From NCBI RefSeq assembly GCF_009914755.1, contig NC_060936.1: a stretch of DNA of 64,000 bases; one strand, given 5' to 3'. This DNA comes from the human T2T-CHM13v2.0 reference genome, Homo sapiens. The translations under genes were made by a program, and so were the position numbers. The notes below the pieces were generated by a model, which worked only from the letters and a program-made list of their open reading frames with translations, was not told the DNA's origin and searched no databases. Shown here piece by piece: positions 16,726-64,000 of this stretch. Positions within the stretch are counted from its first letter, which is position 1; every line of letters starts with the position of its first letter.

Positions 16726-19449
16726 AGTTATGTTCTTAGCAAAAGGGTTGACTGAATTTTGTTAGCATAGTTTGTGCCTCACACTTTCCATGACTTCTTT
16801 CTTTTTCAAAATCCCTCTCTTAATTTCTGTTTCTTCTTTCAAACCAAAATGAAACCAAACTGACGCCTCAAACTAATAAACCTAACCCCAAACTCTGTAG
16901 GTATTAAGGAGTAAACTCAGACAAAAATCTAAAAACTTGGAAATTTTTCCATTATGGTTTAACTAATGTTTCCAATATCAGTTTTTCTTTGGTATTTAAT
17001 TGATTTAACAACTTTTTTTTTTTTTTTTTTTTTACAAAAGCATGCATCAGTTGTAAGCTATTCCATTTATACTTTTAAGAAGTCCTTTCAAACAATTTTA
17101 GTTGTCACATGTTTGGATTATGGTTTTATATCAAAATATTCTACTAAATAACCACTCCAACAGAATATATAGCATTATGTTCTAAAAATAGCATAAACCA
17201 GCTAGTCAAAGAAAGATTATTTTAGTTACAGATATTAACATGAATAGAATAAGATAAGGAAATAAGATAAAGTGTCTACATTCCAAATCCCTCCTCAGTC
17301 TATTTTAATGAGATGGAAATCCAGATTTCCGTAAAATTTTCTTCTCTTTTGTTACTTCTGAAATTCTGAAGAAAAATAATAATAGATATGTTTATGTAGA
17401 GATCAGGGTTTTTTAGGATATGCACAAAGATACATTTTTAAAAATCAGTCATTTTCTTTATATTAATTTTTCCTATCTTTTATAATCAATATTATAGGAA
17501 AATAAAACAAAAATAAATTAAAATTACCTTTTGCATTTCTAAAACTGGTTATGTATAGAAAATTCTCCTAAGAAGTGATTTTCTTGTGACAGAAACCACA
17601 GATCTATACACATGTCATCTCTTTCGAATAAGCTGTGATTAAATTGAGAGAATTAATTTTTTAAAGCAAAGTCAGAGAATTACAGTCATCTAAAAAAATG
17701 AAAATGCCACGATTAATTATCAAAGCAATAGGAACAGAACGCATATTAGCTGAAACTTTATTCTTTCAGGACTTAAACACTAGGAATTTAGTTCCTCAAA
17801 CACTCACGGCCACAGTCTTAGTTCCTGCTTTTATTTTCCAAGTCATAGATTATTTTGACCATCTCATTTGGGACATTTTCTGTTTCATTGATCCATTTTT
17901 TTCTGAGTCTTGTCTTATAATTGTCAGATAAATAGTGCTTAAAACACTTTATAAAAGGTTATTCTAGCGTAAATTACACAACAGGTTATCCAGATTCCAG
18001 GGTTTCTGTGAAAATCTATATAAAGAAAATAAATTAGAAAGGATTTAGTGGTTACAGGACTCAGATACATCATTTCATATGACAGAAATAATTAAAATCC
18101 GGGAAGTAAAAATTTACTGAGGCAGGAAATAATTTATCATTGTACGATTCCAGAGAAAAATTAGCTTGATAAGTGAATTTGATAAAGATTTATATAAGGA
18201 AAATCGATACTGAAAGTTTCTAAAATATAGGATCTTCCTAGGAAGAAGCTTTTAGTTATAAAGTCTGTAATTTAGATGAAAAAAAGTCCCGATAACAATA
18301 GGTGAGTGAAAATGGGAAAATAAAAGAACTGTTGCATTTCTTCCTGCTTTATACAGTTTGGTTTTTAACTTGTGAATTTTTGGTATACTAGTTCAATTTT
18401 TATTTGTTTTTAGGATATTTAAATCAGTTTGAAGTGCTGCATCGTATTTTTCTGTGTTTCATGATTGTTCTTCATGGGGCATTTAAAAAATCAGTTTGAA
18501 TGTTTTAATTCTCATTTTCTGTGTTCTTTCCATAGTATCTTCATATATTAATAGACTAAAAATGCTTTTTGTGGACTGGAATGATAGTTGGAGCACTGTA
18601 TTGGATTCCTATGTCAAGAGTGTCCTCTTCTGTCAAAATATTGCAATGTATTCTCTTAAATGAATGATTTGGGGGAGAGAAGTTTCTTTTGTTTTGTCTT
18701 TTGAATGTCATTTTGTCTATCCTAACACCTCTCTTCAACACATACACACACTTGCTTTTTTCCCTCATTTACTGAGCAGATTTTAAATGTGCTTTTTCCT
18801 TTCTTATGTTTTACCCTCTTCTCAGAAGTTTCGTTTTCCAAGACTAACTCTTCAAGTCCAAAACACACTTTCCTTCTGCCCACCAATCTGATCCTTTTGG
18901 AATTCCTTTTTAAATTTTCACAATTAGTGTGGTCTTGCTCTTTCTGAGGTAGTTGCCAGTTTATCTGAAACCCCTAGGGCACCATGAGAGGATAGAGATG
19001 GGATCTAGGAATAACACTGTAAGTTTTTTTTTTTTTAATTTACAATAATTTGAAGTTTTAGTATTTTCTGACCCCTAGTCATGCTAAAGACATACATTTG
19101 TCTGCTTTCATTTTTATTTTTGCATGTAATATATATATATATTTTAAGGCTATTGTAGGAGAATTTAAATTTAAGCAACTACCATTAGCTCTTTCTGTAT
19201 AGTTTTATTTCAGTGGGTACCTAGGTTTCAGCAGAATTCTCTGCTGTCTACTTGTTTCTGAAATTATAAAGGGAATAACTATCCCCGCCTTGATTTTTCT
19301 TATTCTTGGCCTAGTTTTCATGAATAAACCACAAGAAAAAAGACATAATATTATCAATATTTTGTATTTCTACAGCCTAGTGAACCAGTACATTTTTATA
19401 CATCTGGTAGATTTTGGTTGTAAATTCGTGTGGTTGAGAGTATGATTCC

Positions 19450-25302: not shown

Positions 25303-27807
25303 CACATCATGCAGTTTGAAATGAAACTTTGCCACAACCAGCCTTTGCTGTAGCACACACATATATCACTGAAACTGTTCGAAATAAAGTTTTTTTTTGT
25401 TTTTCATGATTCGTCTTTGAGTACCTCCAGGCTGAAGGACTGTTGTACCAGTAAAAACTTAAAGGCACAAATTATCCTTGAAGACCTTCTCCCTTTTCTT
25501 TGGCCCCATATTTTATGTTGCTTTATCTTTGAAATTTTGCATGAAAAGGATGCAATGAATGGGTTCGAATTGCATGAAAAGGATGCATGAATGGGTTCGA
25601 ATGAAATTGTCCTTTAGAGCATGATTACTTGTTCCCATGGGCAAATAATTTTCTCCCCTTGCTCTTCCTGGCCTGAAATACGGGAAACTAGAGTCAGAAG
25701 TTATCTCCCTCTCCCTGTGATGCCTTGAGATGTTTTTCTGCATTGTTTTATGCCTGAAATCCAATAGTCTTCCTCCATTGGAAAATACTGTTATACCAAA
25801 TAATTCTAGATGAGTAACAAAGATCCTTCTAGGCCTTCATTTTATGTTTTTTCTTAACTGTTATATGATTGTGACACAGATTATAATATTACTAATTTTT
25901 GGATGTTTCAAAAGGTCAATAAGTAAAAGATGTTAGAAAGCAAAAAAAAAAAAAAAAAAAAAAAAGAAAATATATTTTCTATCATGTTCTTCTGATAAAG
26001 TAATTCAAACTTTAACCAGCCCTGAAGACGGCATTGTGATTATACATCCCTGGGTTCTCCTGCTGACCTAAAGTAATATTAATCTCCATATATAACATTA
26101 AAATATATTCCCTTATTAGCTTAAGGGAATAAATGTGAATAATCAAATTTTTTCTTTTGTTAGTGTAGGGCAAATTAAAATTTTTCTGCTTTTTAAAGTT
26201 ATGAAACCATAGACTCATAGAAAAAAAATTCTTCATATACAGGATTTAAGTATAAAAACTTGCGTGTACATATGTGTATATAAATTCTTAGAAAAGTTGT
26301 TAAAATCTCTTATATGTTAAAGCACATGAGAACCGTCAGATAAAATCTGACCTCCTTCAAAAAATCTAATATTTATGTGAGGGTAATATTAATACAATAC
26401 TTATCTTCTTTGTTTCTCCATTTTATGTTGAGTGTTGAGGAGCAAATTAATTGTCTTTTAGAAAGTGGCATTCTTGCAGTGGGCAGCCTGTCTGCTACTT
26501 AGTGCTCTATTATTTCTCTATATCTATTGTTATTTTGTCCTGTTAAATGTTTAAAGAAAGATTAACTATTGCATTACTGTGAGATTTTTATCAAGATTCT
26601 TATCATTGTTAGAATATTATTCTTTAATTCTGCCTATTCCTCCACAGTATTTTTCTAGCATTCTATCTATATGCCACCTTGAGGTCTTCATTTTTTTAAC
26701 TGAGGTAATATATAGACACACTTAAATATTAAGAGTATTATCTTACTGTCAGATGGCTTGCAAATATATTTCCAACAATCTTACCTTTCTTCTGAAAAAT
26801 CATCAATTTTTACCAGAGTTAGAGTTTTAATTTTAAACCATCACAAATTTTTAAAATATTTACCATAATTTTAGCTTTAAAAACACTTTCAGATCATGAC
26901 TTCAATTATATTTTATTCAAAAATTTTTATAGTTTCTAATTCTCATCCAATTTTTATGCTTTCTAGTATATTTGGTATATAGTATAAAAGGAATGTATAC
27001 TATGCCTCTATAACTATCCAAATTGCACAACCAATTTTCATGAAATAAATTGTCCTTTCCCACATTACTTGAAATATCACTTGAATAAGAACCACCATAT
27101 TCGTAGTTATATAGATTTATGGTTCATTTTGATAGCAATAAAAAATCTTAATCAGATAAATATCACTCATCACCATTAATTTCCAAAAACTTTTGATCAT
27201 GCATGCATACATCCATGAGAAGTATATTAATTTATTAGTAAATTAATTATAAATAAATTTATATTTAAAGCATGAAAGTCACACATAGATTTTATGGGCA
27301 CATAAAGAACAATGTGTATTTTTCATTGTTATTTGCATTCTTCATTGTTTTCATCCTATTTTTTTCCATGGACATGACAGTAAGAGATCATCTTCCCTTA
27401 GAAATTTGATCTTTCTCAAATATTGATGGTGAAAGAAGTGAGCTTAATACAGTAAGTCATCTCTTTTCGACTACTCATATCATCCAAGGCAGTTTATCTT
27501 TTGTCCTACATTAGCACTGATAGGCTAAATATTGAATAGTCTGATGTATACTAAAATATGAAGATGTAACACATACAATGAGAGGACATCAGGGCTATTA
27601 TTCTTGTTTAAAATTAACAGTGCTTCCAGGTCTCTTTAATACCTACTCCCCTTCCTCTGCAGGTAAAAGGTAAATGTGCACCAGTACTAAAGGTACCTCC
27701 ACCAAATGGGTCAAATAAGATGAGAGGAAAGCCCAAACAATTATCCTAACTCAGGACACACACATGTCTCATAAAGCACTTACTCGGGGTTAATAAAATA
27801 AACATAC

Positions 27808-27959
27808 CTGCTCCTCTTTGTCATCAATCTTAATGAGACTAGAACCCAGATCTTGGCATGACTTCTTACTCTCATTCCAAGTTTTCTCTTCTTTTGAAAA
27901 ATAGTAACACTTTTCTCCATAGCAGGACAATTTTCCTTGACAGGAGGCACAGCCTTTTT
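27808..27959 (-). pseudogene. KLR-like pseudogene A, first C-type lectin domain exon (KLRH-like)
   Basis: ttttcaag|…|gtatgt splice sites; 152 bp, phase 1-0; open frame KGCASCQGKLSCYGEKCYYFSKEEKTWNESKKSCQDLGSSLIKIDDKEEQ with the NK-lectin Cys/CYYF/W pattern. Confidence 0.9.
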
Positions 27960-38058: not shown

Positions 38059-38155
38059 CTTTACTTTTGTGAGCTGAACGTCTTCCGTTCTTTCATTTTG
38101 AAAAGGGGAATTTTGTCTCTGTGTATGTCACTCTCTCCTCACTCATATCTGAGGG
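38059..38155 (-). pseudogene. KLR-like pseudogene A, first coding (cytoplasmic ITIM-type) exon with a nonsense codon
   Basis: ctttgactgcag acceptor; ATG at 38146; MSEERVTYTETKFPFSK*KNGRRSAHKSK; AG|gtaaac donor in phase 1; VTYxx motif typical of inhibitory KLRs. Confidence 0.75.
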
Positions 38156-38571
38156 CTGCAGTCAAAGAACACAGCAAGAATCCTTTCGAACAGCATAATT
38201 CTTCAGTTGAAATGGGAACATTCATCATGAAGGAATGGAGAGACCTCAATAAGTAATAAGCATGATAGTCAAGAAAAAGTGAAATAAAGTAACCATTTGT
38301 CAGGGAATATCAGAAAATATGATTTTGTAGACTTCTCTTTGTGATGTTTTAGAACAGAGATCCTACATAGCTAAATAATAGTTTGTGACAGTGTACAGAC
38401 ATGTTATATTAGACTTTTAGGCTGTCTTTTAGGTAATTTAATTGCTTGCCAAAAGTTAGAAATTAATGTTTTACACACAAATATCCAGATGTATATCTTC
38501 TCTTGAAAATTGCATGTGAACATTTAGTGCCTGTATTAGTCCCAAGTGATAACCATATTATGATACTGAAT

Positions 38572-60183: not shown

Positions 60184-60430
60184 CTACATCAAATTATAAG
60201 CTCTCTTACACATGCAATTAGTCTCACAAATGGAGCAAAGCCAAGAAATATTTACCGGCACTAGGCACACCAAACTGTTCATTATTTCATTTAATGAAAT
60301 AATGAGATCGGAATTAGTATAATTCCTCTCACAAATAAAGAAAAATTTCTTGGTGCAGAGAGTGGCAGCCACTTTGGTTATTGTGGTATATACACAGTTG
60401 CTGTTTTTTATATTTGAGCCCTGTAGCGCC
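60184..60430 (-). pseudogene. KLR-like pseudogene B, last C-type lectin exon
   Basis: Strong acceptor tttttctcctttcttaacag; phase-2 frame ALQGSNIKNSNCVYTTITKVAATLCTKKFFFICERNY…, i.e. the C-x12-C-x7-C (FICE) CTLD terminus. Confidence 0.82.
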
Positions 60431-60718
60431 CTGTTAAGAAAGGAGAAAAAACTGAGTCCAATAGGAAAATATAAAAAATAATTTCAATATGTAAACTACT
60501 ATAGTCAAGAAGAGAGTTACATATTTAGCTATTTCTCTATTTCTTTATTCATTCAACAAACATTTCTAGAGCACCACCGTAACTCCAGGACCTGGGATAG
60601 ACACACAAAAAAAAAGTCTATTCCTGTCCTCAAGGGCTTCACTCTGAAGAAATGCCACATCATGGAGCAAAAAAGAGTGGTTTCTAATTCAGACAAACGA
60701 GGAAAGAATTTGCTGGGT

Positions 60719-61640
60719 TTGATGGTTAATTGTACATGGCAATTTTAGTGGAGTAAGAGATGCCCAGGTAGGTGGTAAAACATTATTTCTGGATGTGTTT
60801 GTGAGGGTGTTTCCAGAGGAGATAAGCATTTGGATTAGAACTTGAATATATTAGGCGGAGTACGGAAGATCTGGCCTCACCAATGTGGGTGGCATCATAC
60901 AAGCCATTGAGGGTCCAGATAGAATGAAACGCAAACTCACGGTAGATTCTCTCTTCTTGAGCTGGGACACATTTCTATTTTCTCTTGCCCTTGAATATCG
61001 AAGCTCCTGGTCTCAGGCCTTCAGAATTTGGGACTCATACCAGTAGTCCCCATGCCCACACACCTCCCTGCAGATTCTCAGGCATTCAGACTCTGACTGA
61101 GAGTTATACTATCAGTTCACCTGGTTCTCAGGCCTTCAGACTGGTATTGAATTACACCACCCGCTTTCCTGGGTCTCCAGCTTGCAGATGGCACATTGTG
61201 GGACTTTTCAGCTTCCATAGTCAAGTAAGCCAATTCCCATAATAAAGAAATAAATATGTAATTATATATATATTTATTTTTATGTGTGTATGTATATACA
61301 TATATACACACATGTATATATGTATAAACATGTTTGTATATATTTACATGTGTGTACACGTGTGTGTCTTCTATATATGCATAAGTGTGTGTGTAAATTT
61401 ACTGGTCTATATATACAAATATATATAGAGAGAGATGGGTAGAATTTATATATTTTACATATATAATTATTTGATGTGTATAAAATATATACATTTACAC
61501 ACACGTATACATACATGTAAATAAATGTAAATGTTTTATATATGTTTATATATGTGTGTGTATATATATTTATATACACACACACACGTGTGTATTTGTG
61601 TATTCTCCAGGTCTGTTTCTCTAGAGAACCCTAACACACC
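60719..61640 (+). mobile_element. MLT2 (ERVL) solo LTR with an expanded internal TA/TG repeat (61255-61600)
   Basis: gatggttaatt…ggtaaaacattatttctggatgtgtttgtgagggtgtttccag…; ends ctgtttctctagagaaccctaa. Confidence 0.88.
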
Positions 61641-62267
61641 AGGGAAAGCTATTTGGACGTGATAACATTTAAGCTGAATTGTAAAGAAGATACACATACT
61701 TTGTGAGAAGAAACCACATCCACCTTTTCGTTCATTATGTATCCAGTCACTACACAGAACCTGACACATGGTTTATGAAAGATTAAATCAATGAATGCAT
61801 GAATAAATGAATGCTGTATCTAAAAATTAATGAGTAGGGTTTAACCAGATGAAGAGTAAAGGGTAATCCAGACAAAAGATATAGCATATGCAAATATAGA
61901 GGCATGAAACAGCATATCTCATGTGAGTTAACTGCAAACTTGAAGCATACAGTGCATATCAGAGAGCAAACATTTAATACAGCACAGAAAAAAGCATTCC
62001 AAATAGCAGCATAGTATAAAGAGGACCAAATTAGAAATAGAAAACCTAATTCTGAGTTTATCTCTACCATCAACAGGTGCATGAGTTTCTTAATTTATTT
62101 AGCATCTGTAAAACAAAATACTTGAACCATCTGATCTGCAACATTCTTTATAGTTCTAAAAACCTATAATTTCACGGATCAGATGCTTTAAAAATGGAAA
62201 AAAAAATACTTTACACTGAGTCCAATCCAAATCTTTTTCAAATTATCTCCTTGTAGTGTGTACTTAC

Positions 62268-62308
62268 GTGTGTGTGATTTAGAATGCCCATTGCTGGATA
62301 GCAAGGAC
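62268..62308 (-). pseudogene. KLR-like pseudogene B, candidate stalk exon
   Basis: atctttag|…|gtaagta; 41 bp; in phase after the TM exon it reads CPCYPAMGILNHTH (Cys-containing stalk). Confidence 0.5.
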
Positions 62309-62956
62309 CTAAAGATAAATAGAATATAGCATGTATTTGATTTAGATCATGGGGCTAGCCATTGAAACTGCAAATGTCTAGGTACCCTCTCTATATTTCC
62401 AAGTCTAGAAAATGTCATTAATATCTACATTGATAACTTTTTAAAAATGTATTAAGCAACAGCCAATCATTATGTGCTAGATTGAACAAAAGATGAGAGA
62501 CACTATACCCTGATTAGTCATGAAATGGTAGAAGGGGAAAAAAGTGATTTAGGAATGTGCAGGAGGAACTAATTCCAGTAGTCAAAGAAAAAATTATATT
62601 TTTAGCCAATAAAAAATAAAACGGCAATCTCAAGTATGTTAACATCAAAATGAAGAAACAGCTAAACATTACTTCTATTTAATTGAAGGAGTAAATGTGT
62701 CTGACTCTCAAAGAAAATGGAATGTTAGATAGAAATAAAACACAGTTCTCCTTGACTGTTTACTAAAGACTTTCTGCTTTGAATTTGTGGATATTTTTCC
62801 CAAATCCAGAGAAAGCCTTGGAAATGAGAATATTTCTCTGATGTCAGACTGTGATCATCTCATTAGATTTTCCCTTCACCCTTGCCTTGGGAAAGAAAAA
62901 ACAAAACATTTAGAAAACATTAAACATGAGGAATAATGTTTCTGTAGAATACTTAC

Positions 62957-63052
62957 ACTTAGTTGCAAATAATCCTGATATTTACAAAAGAATGAAATAC
63001 ATATTTCCTGATATTACTGCAACAATACATCCAGAAGATACTGTTTGCAACT
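62957..63052 (-). pseudogene. KLR-like pseudogene B, transmembrane exon with a nonsense codon
   Basis: ttttggacag|…|gtaagtat; 96 bp, phase 1-1; LQTVSSGCIVAVISGNMYFILL*ISGLFATK, resembling the KLR TM exon pattern IAVxLGxxCxxLLxxxxxLxTK; TAA at 62982-62984. Confidence 0.78.
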
Positions 63053-64000
63053 CTGTCCAAAAGCATATATGAATTACAGAGAAAGTGTTAACAATCCTTC
63101 AATCAAAGAGCCGTTATCTGAGCTAAGAGTTTTTGACTAAAAAAAAAAAATACACATACAGATTAAATAAAATTACTGAATGAATTAGTACTGTCATTAA
63201 ATAGATATTATGACCCACTCAGCCCTCATGGGTATTTTGTTTATAGAAAACCTACCAGCTGTTAGAAGTGTTTGCCTCTAATTTTGAAATTATTGGTGCT
63301 GCTGCTGTAAAGATTACTTCATGGTGTAGTAAAGTAGTGGGGGCAGGGTGGAATATTCTCATTTATTTTCAAAATAACCATTACTTCTTAACATCAACAA
63401 TTTTGTCTTTTCCAAAATTGCTTACAATATGCATGGGATTTCCCTTGTTTGGAACTACTAAATTGTATGATTTTTACTGTAGAAAAGAGAGCTACCAATA
63501 ATAAAAGCTATTGAGTTTAAAAGTAAGAGAGGTGACTATTAGGATCCCTTCCCAGGCCATTATTCAAAGAAAGGATGTAGGAACAGAGAATATCTCTAGG
63601 AAAATAAGCAAACAGCTGGAAAATACTATATAGTACAGTCAATTGGGAACTAACCAAGATTCAACTCAAATGCTAAGGGAGAAATACCAGACTATAGCAA
63701 AAGGATATCTTTATGAAATACAGAAAGGAAGAAATTGAAAACACATTTCAGGTCCTAGAAAAATCCTCTGAAGAAAACAATCCAGTAGCAATGTGAAGGC
63801 ACTCCTGATCTTCTGTCTTGACTTCATCATGCTACCCAAGTCACAGCCATAAAAGTCTACTGACTGGTCTTCCTTTAGTACAATGCCTCAAAGTATACAT
63901 TCAGTAAATATGTTTAATTAACTGGATGACTCCCTCAGGAAAAAACTGAGAAACTGACCAGGCTGCAGTTGTCATGTTGATAAGATCTGCTGCTCCAAAC

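What the first reader, a model, noticed from the sequence alone, without database searches (positions are those of the whole stretch)
60184..63052. Second fossil KLR gene: TM, stalk and last lectin exon present, first two lectin exons apparently deleted
Seen: a 96-bp phase 1-1 TM exon with intact splice sites and one in-frame TAA; a 41-bp Cys-containing exon (1 nt short of frame-preserving); and a terminal CTLD exon (NCVY…C…FFICE) that is still open and runs on to a stop at 60184. The 1.8 kb between them is mostly MLT2, L2 and MIR sequence with no CYYF or WIGL exon. The TM has no Lys/Arg in its core, which suggests a non-activating receptor. Inference: a second, separate lost receptor (KLRH/KLRJ-like), so the ancestral locus held at least two more tandem KLR genes in the same orientation.
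Basis: partly seen in the sequence, partly recalled or inferred. Interest (0 to 1): 0.8.

Follow-up and report, generated by a model that had tools for sequence, protein, structure and literature searches.

The report
Decayed NK-cell lectin receptor gene relic
This stretch of human chromosome 12 holds the broken remains of a natural-killer-cell lectin receptor gene that still works in horses, deer and cattle, so a gene reported as absent from the human genome decayed where it stood and is not entirely gone.

Summary
The finding is real. The minus-strand 96-nt transmembrane exon (63052-62957) and the terminal lectin exon (60430 onward) both match one ungulate receptor lineage that NCBI labels "CLEC7A-like". 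I call it lineage A; examples are horse P0015 and fallow deer P0004.

- **Match strength:** the terminal exon is 33/45 identical to horse (E 4e-17). The TM exon is 21/30 identical to deer and has the same 96-nt length. A lineage-A HMM scores them 50.7 and 24.6 bits, against at most 6.9 bits on reversed or shuffled controls.
- **Extent:** the gene runs past the window edge. One further cytoplasmic exon is clear (64784-64667, 26.3 bits). Two more are probable or possible (68224-68135; start-codon exon 87093-87005).
- **Missing parts:** no stalk exon and no lectin exon 1 or 2 is detectable between the TM and terminal exons.
- **The 41-bp "exon":** it has no homology support.
- **Family:** lineage A groups with the Ly49 cluster (KLRA/KLRH/KLRJ) and not with NKG2 or KLRI. 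I could not decide between the names KLRJ and KLRH.
- **Second gene:** a lectin exon-1 relic at 27945-27805, downstream on the same strand, shows that a second lost gene existed.

Schwartz et al. 2017 reported KLRH and KLRJ as not found or deleted in human. This is a new pseudogene relic of a known kind, of moderate interest.

The parts
63053..64000 (-). Intron upstream of the TM exon, running off the window edge. The gene continues outside the window. Coordinates below are on the window scale, in loci L009 and L011.
- **Exon 3, 64784-64667.** Open; reads TIKEQVGKPHRNEGFHSYSQPQTQASQQIQRITEHSRNE; donor G|gtatat in phase 1; no AG visible at the expected acceptor.
- **Possible exon 2, 68224-68135.** 90 nt, phase 1-1; reads ENDKKVSPVEYALITPNSLRRSRPE*SKE; lies 61 nt inside the annotated 5' end of lncRNA LOC105369658.
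- **Probable exon 1, 87093-87005.** Reads MTEENIYTEVKSHDKRK, then after a 1-nt frameshift KEKIRSRTTGSQYTY; donor G|gtaaac.
   Evidence: - **Exon 3.** The lineage-A HMM gave 26.3 bits, E 5.3e-7. It is 22/37 identical to horse P0015, E 1.9e-9. Its last G plus the AG that opens the TM exon makes Glu, as in horse.
- **Exon 1.** tblastn against horse gave 13/18 identical including the residue before the Met, summed E 0.006 among 13 queries. Smith-Waterman gave 12/17. The HMM score is only 2.7 bits, within noise.
- **Exon 2.** E 1.7-2.3, with 12/30 identical to P0004. It is supported only by order, strand, splice flanks and phase.
62957..63052 (-). Transmembrane exon. It is 96 nt and phase 1-1, with an intact AG acceptor and GTAAGT donor, one in-frame TAA, and no charged residue in the core.
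   Evidence: 21/30 identical to deer P0004, P0008 and P0013 (E 1.8e-5). The HMM gave 24.6 bits, E 1.7e-6. The best lineage-B alignment is 9/23. Generic KLR TM exons score at most 7 bits. KLRC1's TM exon has the same 96-nt length and phase.
62268..62308 (-). I do not accept it as part of the gene.
   Evidence: It has AG and GTAAGT flanks. No frame resembles the orthologues' stalk.
61260..61630 (.). TG/TA-rich simple-sequence tract inside the shortened interval between the TM and terminal exons.
   Evidence: Read directly. A self-inverted match appears.
60716..61247 (.). Dispersed repeat copy, LTR-like, family not named, inside the same interval.
   Evidence: the genome search on the own genome: all 40 scored of 4522 first-look candidates matched query positions about 285-926 at 67-83% identity on many chromosomes.
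60184..60430 (-). Terminal lectin-domain exon. The homologous part is 60429-60295 (ALQGSNIKNSNCVYTTITKVAATLCTKKFFFICERNYTNSDLIIS). The frame then reads on past the place of the orthologues' stop, to TAG at 60184.
   Evidence: tblastn against horse P0015 gave 33/45 identical, E 4.4e-17. The lineage-A HMM gave 50.7 bits, against 13.3 bits for lineage B. Pfam Lectin_C matched positions 75-107 at E 0.017. The only 3 PDB hits were the C-terminal ends of CLEC-2 (two entries) and CD69. The acceptor phase equals that of KLRK1, KLRC1 and KLRA1P.

Best explanation
This is the in-situ wreck of a single-copy (unitary) NK-complex gene for a type II C-type lectin-like receptor of the Ly49-related group. It is the human counterpart of a gene that is intact in horse, deer and cattle (lineage A). 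The gene ran on the minus strand, in the same orientation as KLRC1 and KLRA1P.

Its recognisable exons, 5' to 3', are:
- a probable start exon at about 87.1 kb;
- a possible exon at 68.2 kb;
- a cytoplasmic exon at 64.7 kb;
- the TM exon at 63.0 kb;
- the last lectin exon at 60.4 kb.

It was inactivated by loss of the stalk exon(s) and the first two lectin exons. Only 2.5 kb now separates the TM and terminal exons, and about 0.9 kb of that is repeat. Point lesions added to the damage: a TAA in the TM exon, a TGA in exon 2, a frameshift in exon 1, and loss of the original stop.

It encodes no receptor today. What remains are splice-competent exon shells, some of which lie inside predicted lncRNAs.

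Shown here: homology, exon order, exon phases, the lesions, and the absence of the middle exons. Inferred: that one deletion removed the middle exons, when that happened, and that the ancestral protein was non-activating.
For: - **Discovery of the orthologue.** An unbiased HMMER search of 1.84 billion proteins with the exon ORF returned a 256-aa deer receptor, P0004, whose last 37 residues align at 62%.
- **Best match in the region.** In tblastn of P0004 against 219 kb spanning KLRK1 to KLRA1P, the terminal exon is the best hit of the whole region (E 1.8e-10). The TM exon also hits, at 70% identity.
- **HMM and controls.** The lineage-A HMM gives 50.7 bits (terminal exon), 26.3 bits (exon 3) and 24.6 bits (TM exon). 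Reversed and shuffled controls give at most 6.9 bits.
- **Lineage assignment.** The terminal exon scores 50.7 bits with lineage A and 13.3 bits with lineage B. Best identities are 33/45 (A) against 12/28 (B).
- **Exon architecture.** The TM exon is 96 nt and phase 1-1, as in KLRC1. The terminal acceptor phase matches 3 of 3 authentic KLR genes. The exon 3/TM junction codon matches horse.
- **No paralogue.** Searching the human genome with the 36-aa exon peptide found only the exon itself.
- **Family placement.** In the tree, lineages A and B plus human KLRA1P separate from NKG2 and NKG2D with support 98/90. The orthologues carry Lectin_C at 60-67 bits and a weak Ly49 N-terminal signal.
Against: - Exons 1 and 2 rest on weak scores (E 0.006 and about 2; HMM within noise), so the 27-kb extent is not proven.
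- No orthologous genomic DNA from primates or ungulates could be examined. The deletion is inferred only from absence of signal in 2.5 kb. Decay beyond recognition cannot be fully excluded.
- Pfam Lectin_C on the 99-aa ORF gave nothing. On the trimmed exon it is below the family cut-off (16.3 against 22.6 bits).
- The subfamily name is unresolved. Lineage A was not seen in carnivores or lemurs in my word-limited searches, although KLRJ is reported there. Its cattle protein is not labelled KLRJ1.
Confidence: 0.9

Rival explanations
1. The 5' exons (exon 3 and the TM exon) and the terminal exon come from two different tandem lineage-A genes. A deletion between the paralogues then fused the front of one to the tail of the other.
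For: Tandem KLR paralogues and non-allelic recombination are common in the NK complex (Schwartz 2017, passages). Deer carry two lineage-A forms with different first exons (P0004 and P0008). An exon-1-like relic of the P0008 type lies at 38146-38060.
Against: An in-register paralogue deletion would normally keep a full exon set, and here the middle exons are missing. All pieces are collinear on one strand, and each exon type occurs only once in the 60-88 kb span.
Confidence: 0.05
2. The pieces are retained because they still function. They could serve as exons of the predicted lncRNA LOC105369658, or as a small ORF. A 141-aa public gene model, P0001, contains the terminal exon.
For: - The terminal exon frame is open for 99 codons.
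- P0001 is identical to the window over the stretch ending ..DLIIS and 90% over 72 aligned residues.
- Exon 2 sits at the annotated 5' end of LOC105369658 (hub table).
- The TM exon's splice sites are intact.
Against: There are stops in the TM exon and exon 2 and a frameshift in exon 1. P0001's model reads through the intron side of the acceptor, so it is not a KLR-type splice form. No expression data could be examined here. This rival adds to the pseudogene reading and does not replace it.
Confidence: 0.04
3. Chance resemblance in AT-rich DNA.
For: Hydrophobic AG..GT-bounded ORFs are frequent here, with 14-53 candidates per gene span. The loose Cys pattern occurs 48 times in 219 kb.
Against: E-values run from 2e-14 to 1.7e-6 against a specific orthologue family. 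Three collinear exons match the same protein. Null scores are at most 6.9 bits.
Confidence: 0.01

Closest known systems
[quoted passage not shown]
   Same: These are the orthologous exons. Identities are 33/45 for the terminal exon, 21/30 for the TM exon and 22/37 for cytoplasmic exon 3. The TM exon has the same length and the junction codon is the same. The sheep model P0016 fuses a KLRA front to this gene, which places it downstream of KLRA on the same strand, as in human.
   Different: The ungulate genes are intact, with stalk and a full lectin domain (Lectin_C 60-67 bits). The human copy lacks those exons and carries stops and a frameshift.
KLRJ and KLRH, the Ly49-related NK-complex subfamilies. 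Schwartz et al. 2017 (PMC5350243) reported both as not found or deleted in human.
   Same: - The position between KLRC1 and KLRA1P, and the orientation of KLRA.
- A Ly49-cluster type lectin domain in the orthologues (tree).
- A TM and tail without a charged TM residue in the lineage-A members aligned, apart from the two Bos forms (P0009, P0010), which have Arg at that position. Schwartz describes KLRJ the same way (passages).
   Different: I could not compare with reference bovine KLRJ1 or rat Klrh1, because neither was retrievable. Bovine 'KLRH5' (P0055) belongs to sister lineage B, which the human terminal exon matches poorly (13.3 bits). Which published name lineage A carries is therefore open.
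KLRA1P (human Ly49L), the known Ly49-type pseudogene about 45 kb further along the + strand
   Same: Same strand, same exon phases and the same Cys spacing in the last exon (C-x12-C-x7-C).
   Different: KLRA1P keeps its TM exon and all three lectin exons and is annotated. The relic has lost its middle exons and is unannotated. Sequence similarity between the two is low, and lineage-A protein queries or the lineage-A HMM reach only E 9-11 on KLRA1P's last exon.

Membership tests
NK-complex type II C-type lectin-like receptor (KLR) gene | A TM exon of about 90-99 nt in phase 1-1. | tested here: met
   The exon is 96 nt and phase 1-1. KLRC1 has 96 nt, KLRC3 and KLRC4 have 99, KLRK1 has 93, all phase 1-1.
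NK-complex type II C-type lectin-like receptor (KLR) gene | A terminal lectin exon with the conserved Cys pattern and acceptor phase. | tested here: met
   The pattern NC-x12-C-x7-C is present. The exon opens with 1 nt followed by whole codons, as in 3 of 3 authentic genes. The only 3 PDB hits are C-terminal ends of NKC lectin domains.
NK-complex type II C-type lectin-like receptor (KLR) gene | A Pfam Lectin_C match over the family cut-off. | tested here: inconclusive
   The exon alone scores 16.3 bits (E 0.017) against a cut-off of 22.6 bits. Three authentic single last exons scored nothing, so the test lacks power on one exon. The orthologues score 60-67 bits.
NK-complex type II C-type lectin-like receptor (KLR) gene | A complete lectin domain (three exons) and an open reading frame. 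| tested here: not met
   No lectin exon 1 or 2 lies between 62956 and 60431. There is a TAA in the TM exon. This is a relic and not a working member.
Ly49-cluster lineage (KLRA/KLRH/KLRJ) | The lectin domain groups with KLRA and not with NKG2 or NKG2D. | tested here: met
   Tested on the orthologues: lineages A and B plus KLRA1P separate from NKG2 plus KLRK1 with support 98/90. KLRA1P sits on a long branch. The A and B HMMs score KLRA1P exons above KLRC1 and KLRK1 exons.
Ly49-cluster lineage (KLRA/KLRH/KLRJ) | The Ly49 N-terminal (TM and stalk) domain, PF08391. | tested here: inconclusive
   The orthologues score 17.7-30 bits against a cut-off of 31.5 bits. Lineage B scores 30-41 bits. The NKG2A-like control shows none.
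KLRJ | Identity with reference bovine KLRJ1, and a TM and tail without signalling motifs. | not testable with these tools
   No reference KLRJ1 sequence was retrievable. The orthologues mostly lack a charged TM residue, but Bos has Arg and an IDYTTL motif.
KLRH (bovine KLRH type, lineage B) | The terminal exon and TM exon match lineage B best. | tested here: not met
   The terminal exon scores 13.3 bits with lineage B and 50.7 bits with lineage A. The TM exon has no lineage-B hit above noise. Rat or mouse Klrh1 was not available for comparison.
KLRI | An NKG2-like lectin domain with a Cys at the third codon of lectin exon 1 (Flornes 2010, PMC2910302, passages). | tested here: not met
   The orthologues have the Ly49-type KWSCCxEKCYYF start, like KLRA1P's SCCGVNCYYF, and they cluster away from NKG2. 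This could be tested only on the orthologues, because the human exon is missing.

The most novel reading that the evidence does not exclude
The dead receptor gene may not be silent. Its exon shells and regulatory DNA may have been taken over by lymphocyte lncRNAs.

- Exon 2 sits at the annotated 5' end of LOC105369658.
- About 2.4 kb away, LINC02446 starts in the opposite direction and runs antisense through the relic's first intron and start exon. LINC02446 is used as a naive CD8 T-cell marker.

The divergent pair could be a surviving Ly49-style bidirectional promoter switch that still gives cytotoxic-lymphocyte-specific transcription. The comparison with the Ly49 switch is recalled from memory and comes from no call.
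Probability: 0.12. Interest if true: 0.6.

Novelty: new member of a known kind. Interest (0 to 1): 0.4.

Why it matters
Comparative studies of the NK complex state that KLRH and KLRJ were not found or were deleted in human (Schwartz 2017, passages). My library searches for human KLRH/KLRJ/KLRI relics found no report of one. Hao et al. 2006 was not held and remains unchecked.

A multi-exon relic changes three things:
- It shows the loss was decay in place with an internal deletion, and not clean removal of the gene.
- It places this ungulate receptor lineage in the common ancestor of primates and hoofed mammals.
- It gives a sequence anchor for dating the loss across primates and for aligning NK-complex maps between orders.

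It has no direct medical consequence.

Tried and rejected
- **Pfam on the 99-aa ORF, the TM peptide and the 41-bp region.** No Lectin_C hit. Trimming the exon gave E 0.017.
- **Word-based homologue search with the exon peptide.** No candidates.
- **tblastx and blastn against KLRA1P, KLRC1 and KLRK1.** Only noise and repeats. The human paralogues are too distant to validate the exons.
- **Searching the human genome with the exon peptide.** Only the exon itself was found.
- **Lectin_C family search over the genome.** It did not flag this exon.
- **Stalk or lectin exons 1-2 in 62956-60431.** The best match was WIWEKYPQIQSRK at 62808-62752 against WMWEDGSLIQYKL, at E 0.047 among 10 queries. I judged it chance.
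- **A KLRH-like hit at 105329-105282.** It showed no extended similarity and I rejected it.
- **Naming lineage A.**
  - Papers read as passages: Schwartz 2017, the carnivore NKC paper (2024) with its supplement 13, the camel paper (2019), the GBE paper (2026), Flornes 2010, Kelley 2005 and Averdam 2009.
  - None printed reference sequences.
  - Hao 2006 and Saether 2008 are not held.
  - KLRI was rejected. KLRJ against KLRH is left open.
- **First hand-in of this report.** It was returned because three parts lay outside the window. Those exons are now described under the part 63053-64000.
Full report
**The observation**

On the minus strand, 63052-62957 is a 96-nt segment bounded by ..ggacag| and |gtaagt. 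In phase 1-1 it reads (E)LQTVSSGCIVAVISGNMYFILL*ISGLFATK, with one TAA and no Lys or Arg in the hydrophobic core.

At 60430 a strong acceptor (ttttttctcctttcttaacag|) opens a frame that reads ALQGSNIKNSNCVYTTITKVAATLCTKKFFFICERNYTN.. and stays open to the stop at 60184 (99-aa stop-to-stop ORF).

The 41-nt segment 62308-62268 with AG and GTAAGT flanks is also there.

**First tests were weak**

- Pfam found no Lectin_C in the 99-aa ORF.
- phmmer against PDB gave only CLEC-2, and with the trimmed peptide also CD69. These aligned to the very C-terminal end of the lectin domain at E 0.3-1.4.
- Comparison with the human paralogues KLRA1P, KLRC1 and KLRK1, fetched, gave no significant sequence match.
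- That comparison did show matching architecture. The terminal acceptor is in the same phase as in 3 of 3 authentic genes. The TM exons of KLRC1 (96 nt), KLRC3 and KLRC4 (99) and KLRK1 (93) are all phase 1-1.
- Hydrophobic AG..GT ORFs and the loose Cys pattern are common in this AT-rich DNA. Architecture alone therefore proves little.

**The decisive result**

I ran an index-free HMMER search of 1.84 billion representative proteins with the exon ORF. It returned five hits:
- P0001, a 141-aa gene model that contains this very exon;
- P0002 and P0003, two fragments;
- P0004, a 256-aa fallow-deer type II receptor whose last 37 residues align at 62%;
- P0005, an unrelated repeat protein.

P0004's TM segment reads QAASSGCIVAVILGIICVILLGISGFFATK. 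The human TM exon matches it at 21 of 30 positions. Two exons 2.5 kb apart thus match the two ends of one protein.

In tblastn of P0004 against 219 kb from KLRK1 to KLRA1P, the terminal exon is the best hit of the whole region (E 1.8e-10). It beats every authentic KLR exon.

**The family**

Relatives of P0004 fall into two lineages.
- Lineage A covers ruminants and horse and is labelled "CLEC7A-like" by NCBI.
- Lineage B is a widespread sister lineage. It includes a Bos protein that UniProt names KLRH5 (P0055).

Results from HMMs built for each lineage, run over six-frame translations of the 219 kb:

| Hit | Coordinates | Lineage A (bits, E) | Lineage B (bits) |
|---|---|---|---|
| Terminal exon | 60429-60316 | 50.7, E 2e-14 | 13.3 |
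| New exon | 64781-64668 | 26.3, E 5e-7 | no hit listed |
| TM exon | 63053-62955 | 24.6, E 1.7e-6 | no hit listed |

Reversed or shuffled translations (2190 chunks) never exceeded 6.9 bits for lineage A or 9.2 bits for lineage B.

Horse P0015 is the closest relative:
- terminal exon, 33/45 identical, E 4e-17;
- exon 3, 22/37 identical, E 1.9e-9.

**The gene extends beyond the window**

- **Exon 3 (64784-64667).** It is open and ends G|gtatat. That G plus the AG that begins the TM exon gives Glu, the residue horse has at this junction.
- **Exon 2 (68224-68135).** A 90-nt phase 1-1 segment flanked by AG and GT aligns weakly to the family's exon 2 (E about 2). It carries VEYALI and one TGA.
- **Exon 1 (87093-87005).** MTEENIYTEVKSHDKRK matches the horse N-terminus. 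tblastn gave 13/18 identical including the preceding residue (E 0.006), and Smith-Waterman gave 12/17. It has a 1-nt frameshift and a donor at the homologous place.
- I treat exon 3 as established, exon 1 as probable and exon 2 as possible.

**What is missing**

- No stalk exon and no lectin exon 1 or 2 is detectable between 62956 and 60431.
- About 530 bp of that interval is a dispersed repeat.
- About 370 bp is simple sequence.
- The 41-bp "exon" matches nothing in the orthologues, and I drop it.
- Loss of the middle exons by deletion is the simplest reading, but it is inferred.

**A second gene**

A lectin exon-1 relic (..SCYGEKCYYFSKEEKTWNESKKSCQDLGSSLIKIDDKEEQ) lies at 27945-27805 on the same strand, downstream of this gene's last exon.

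**Which subfamily**

- The orthologues carry Lectin_C at 60-67 bits and a weak Ly49 N-terminal signal. An NKG2A-like control shows no such signal.
- In a tree, lineages A and B plus human KLRA1P separate from NKG2 and NKG2D with support 98/90. KLRA1P sits on a long branch.
- Their lectin domain starts KWSCCxEKCYYF, like KLRA1P, and lacks the NKG2- and KLRI-type early Cys described by Flornes 2010. KLRI is therefore excluded.
- The sheep model P0016 fuses a KLRA front to lineage A. That places the gene downstream of KLRA on the same strand, as in human.
- I could not settle whether the literature calls lineage A KLRJ or KLRH. No reference sequences were available, and the published maps name genes differently.

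**Novelty**

Schwartz 2017 states that KLRJ was not found in GRCh38 and that KLRH and KLRJ were deleted in the human lineage. Four library searches found no report of human relics. Hao 2006 was not readable. The RefSeq table supplied by the hub lists only lncRNAs here. This is a new pseudogene relic of a known kind.

Noticed in passing
window 27805-27945 (-), with 38060-38146 (-) and 17295-17387 (-): These are relics of at least one more Ly49-cluster receptor gene.
- A clear lectin exon 1 lies at 27945-27805 (lineage-B HMM 51.7 bits, lineage-A HMM 46.5 bits).
- An exon-1-like MSEERVTYTETKF.. lies at 38146-38060 (E 0.076 against deer P0008). It coincides with exon 38059-38200 of lncRNA LOC105369657.
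- A weak lectin exon-1-like piece with a stop lies at 17387-17295 (E about 0.2).
   Followed up: partly
68135-68285 and 70734-93058 on the window scale (outside the window; loci L009-L011): The predicted lncRNA LOC105369658 starts 61 nt upstream of the relic's possible exon 2. LINC02446 starts about 2.4 kb away in the opposite direction and runs antisense over the relic's intron 1 and start exon. LINC02446 is used as a naive CD8 T-cell marker (bioRxiv 10.1101/2022.07.11.498621, passages). I did not examine expression of the relic exons.
   Followed up: no
window scale -28000 to -60000 (loci L015-L021): Only three NKG2-type genes appear between KLRK1 and the window: lectin exon-1 hits at about -33.3k, -48.7k and -59.4k. 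The hub table lists KLRC1, KLRC3 and KLRC4 but no KLRC2. This assembly seems to carry a haplotype without KLRC2. That such a deletion haplotype is common is recalled from memory and was not checked.
   Followed up: partly
window 60268-60483 (-): A 141-aa protein model in the public library (P0001) contains this stretch. It is identical up to ..DLIIS and 90% identical over 72 aligned residues. It reads through the intron side of the fossil acceptor. Its other parts did not map within the 219 kb at E 1e-3.
   Followed up: partly
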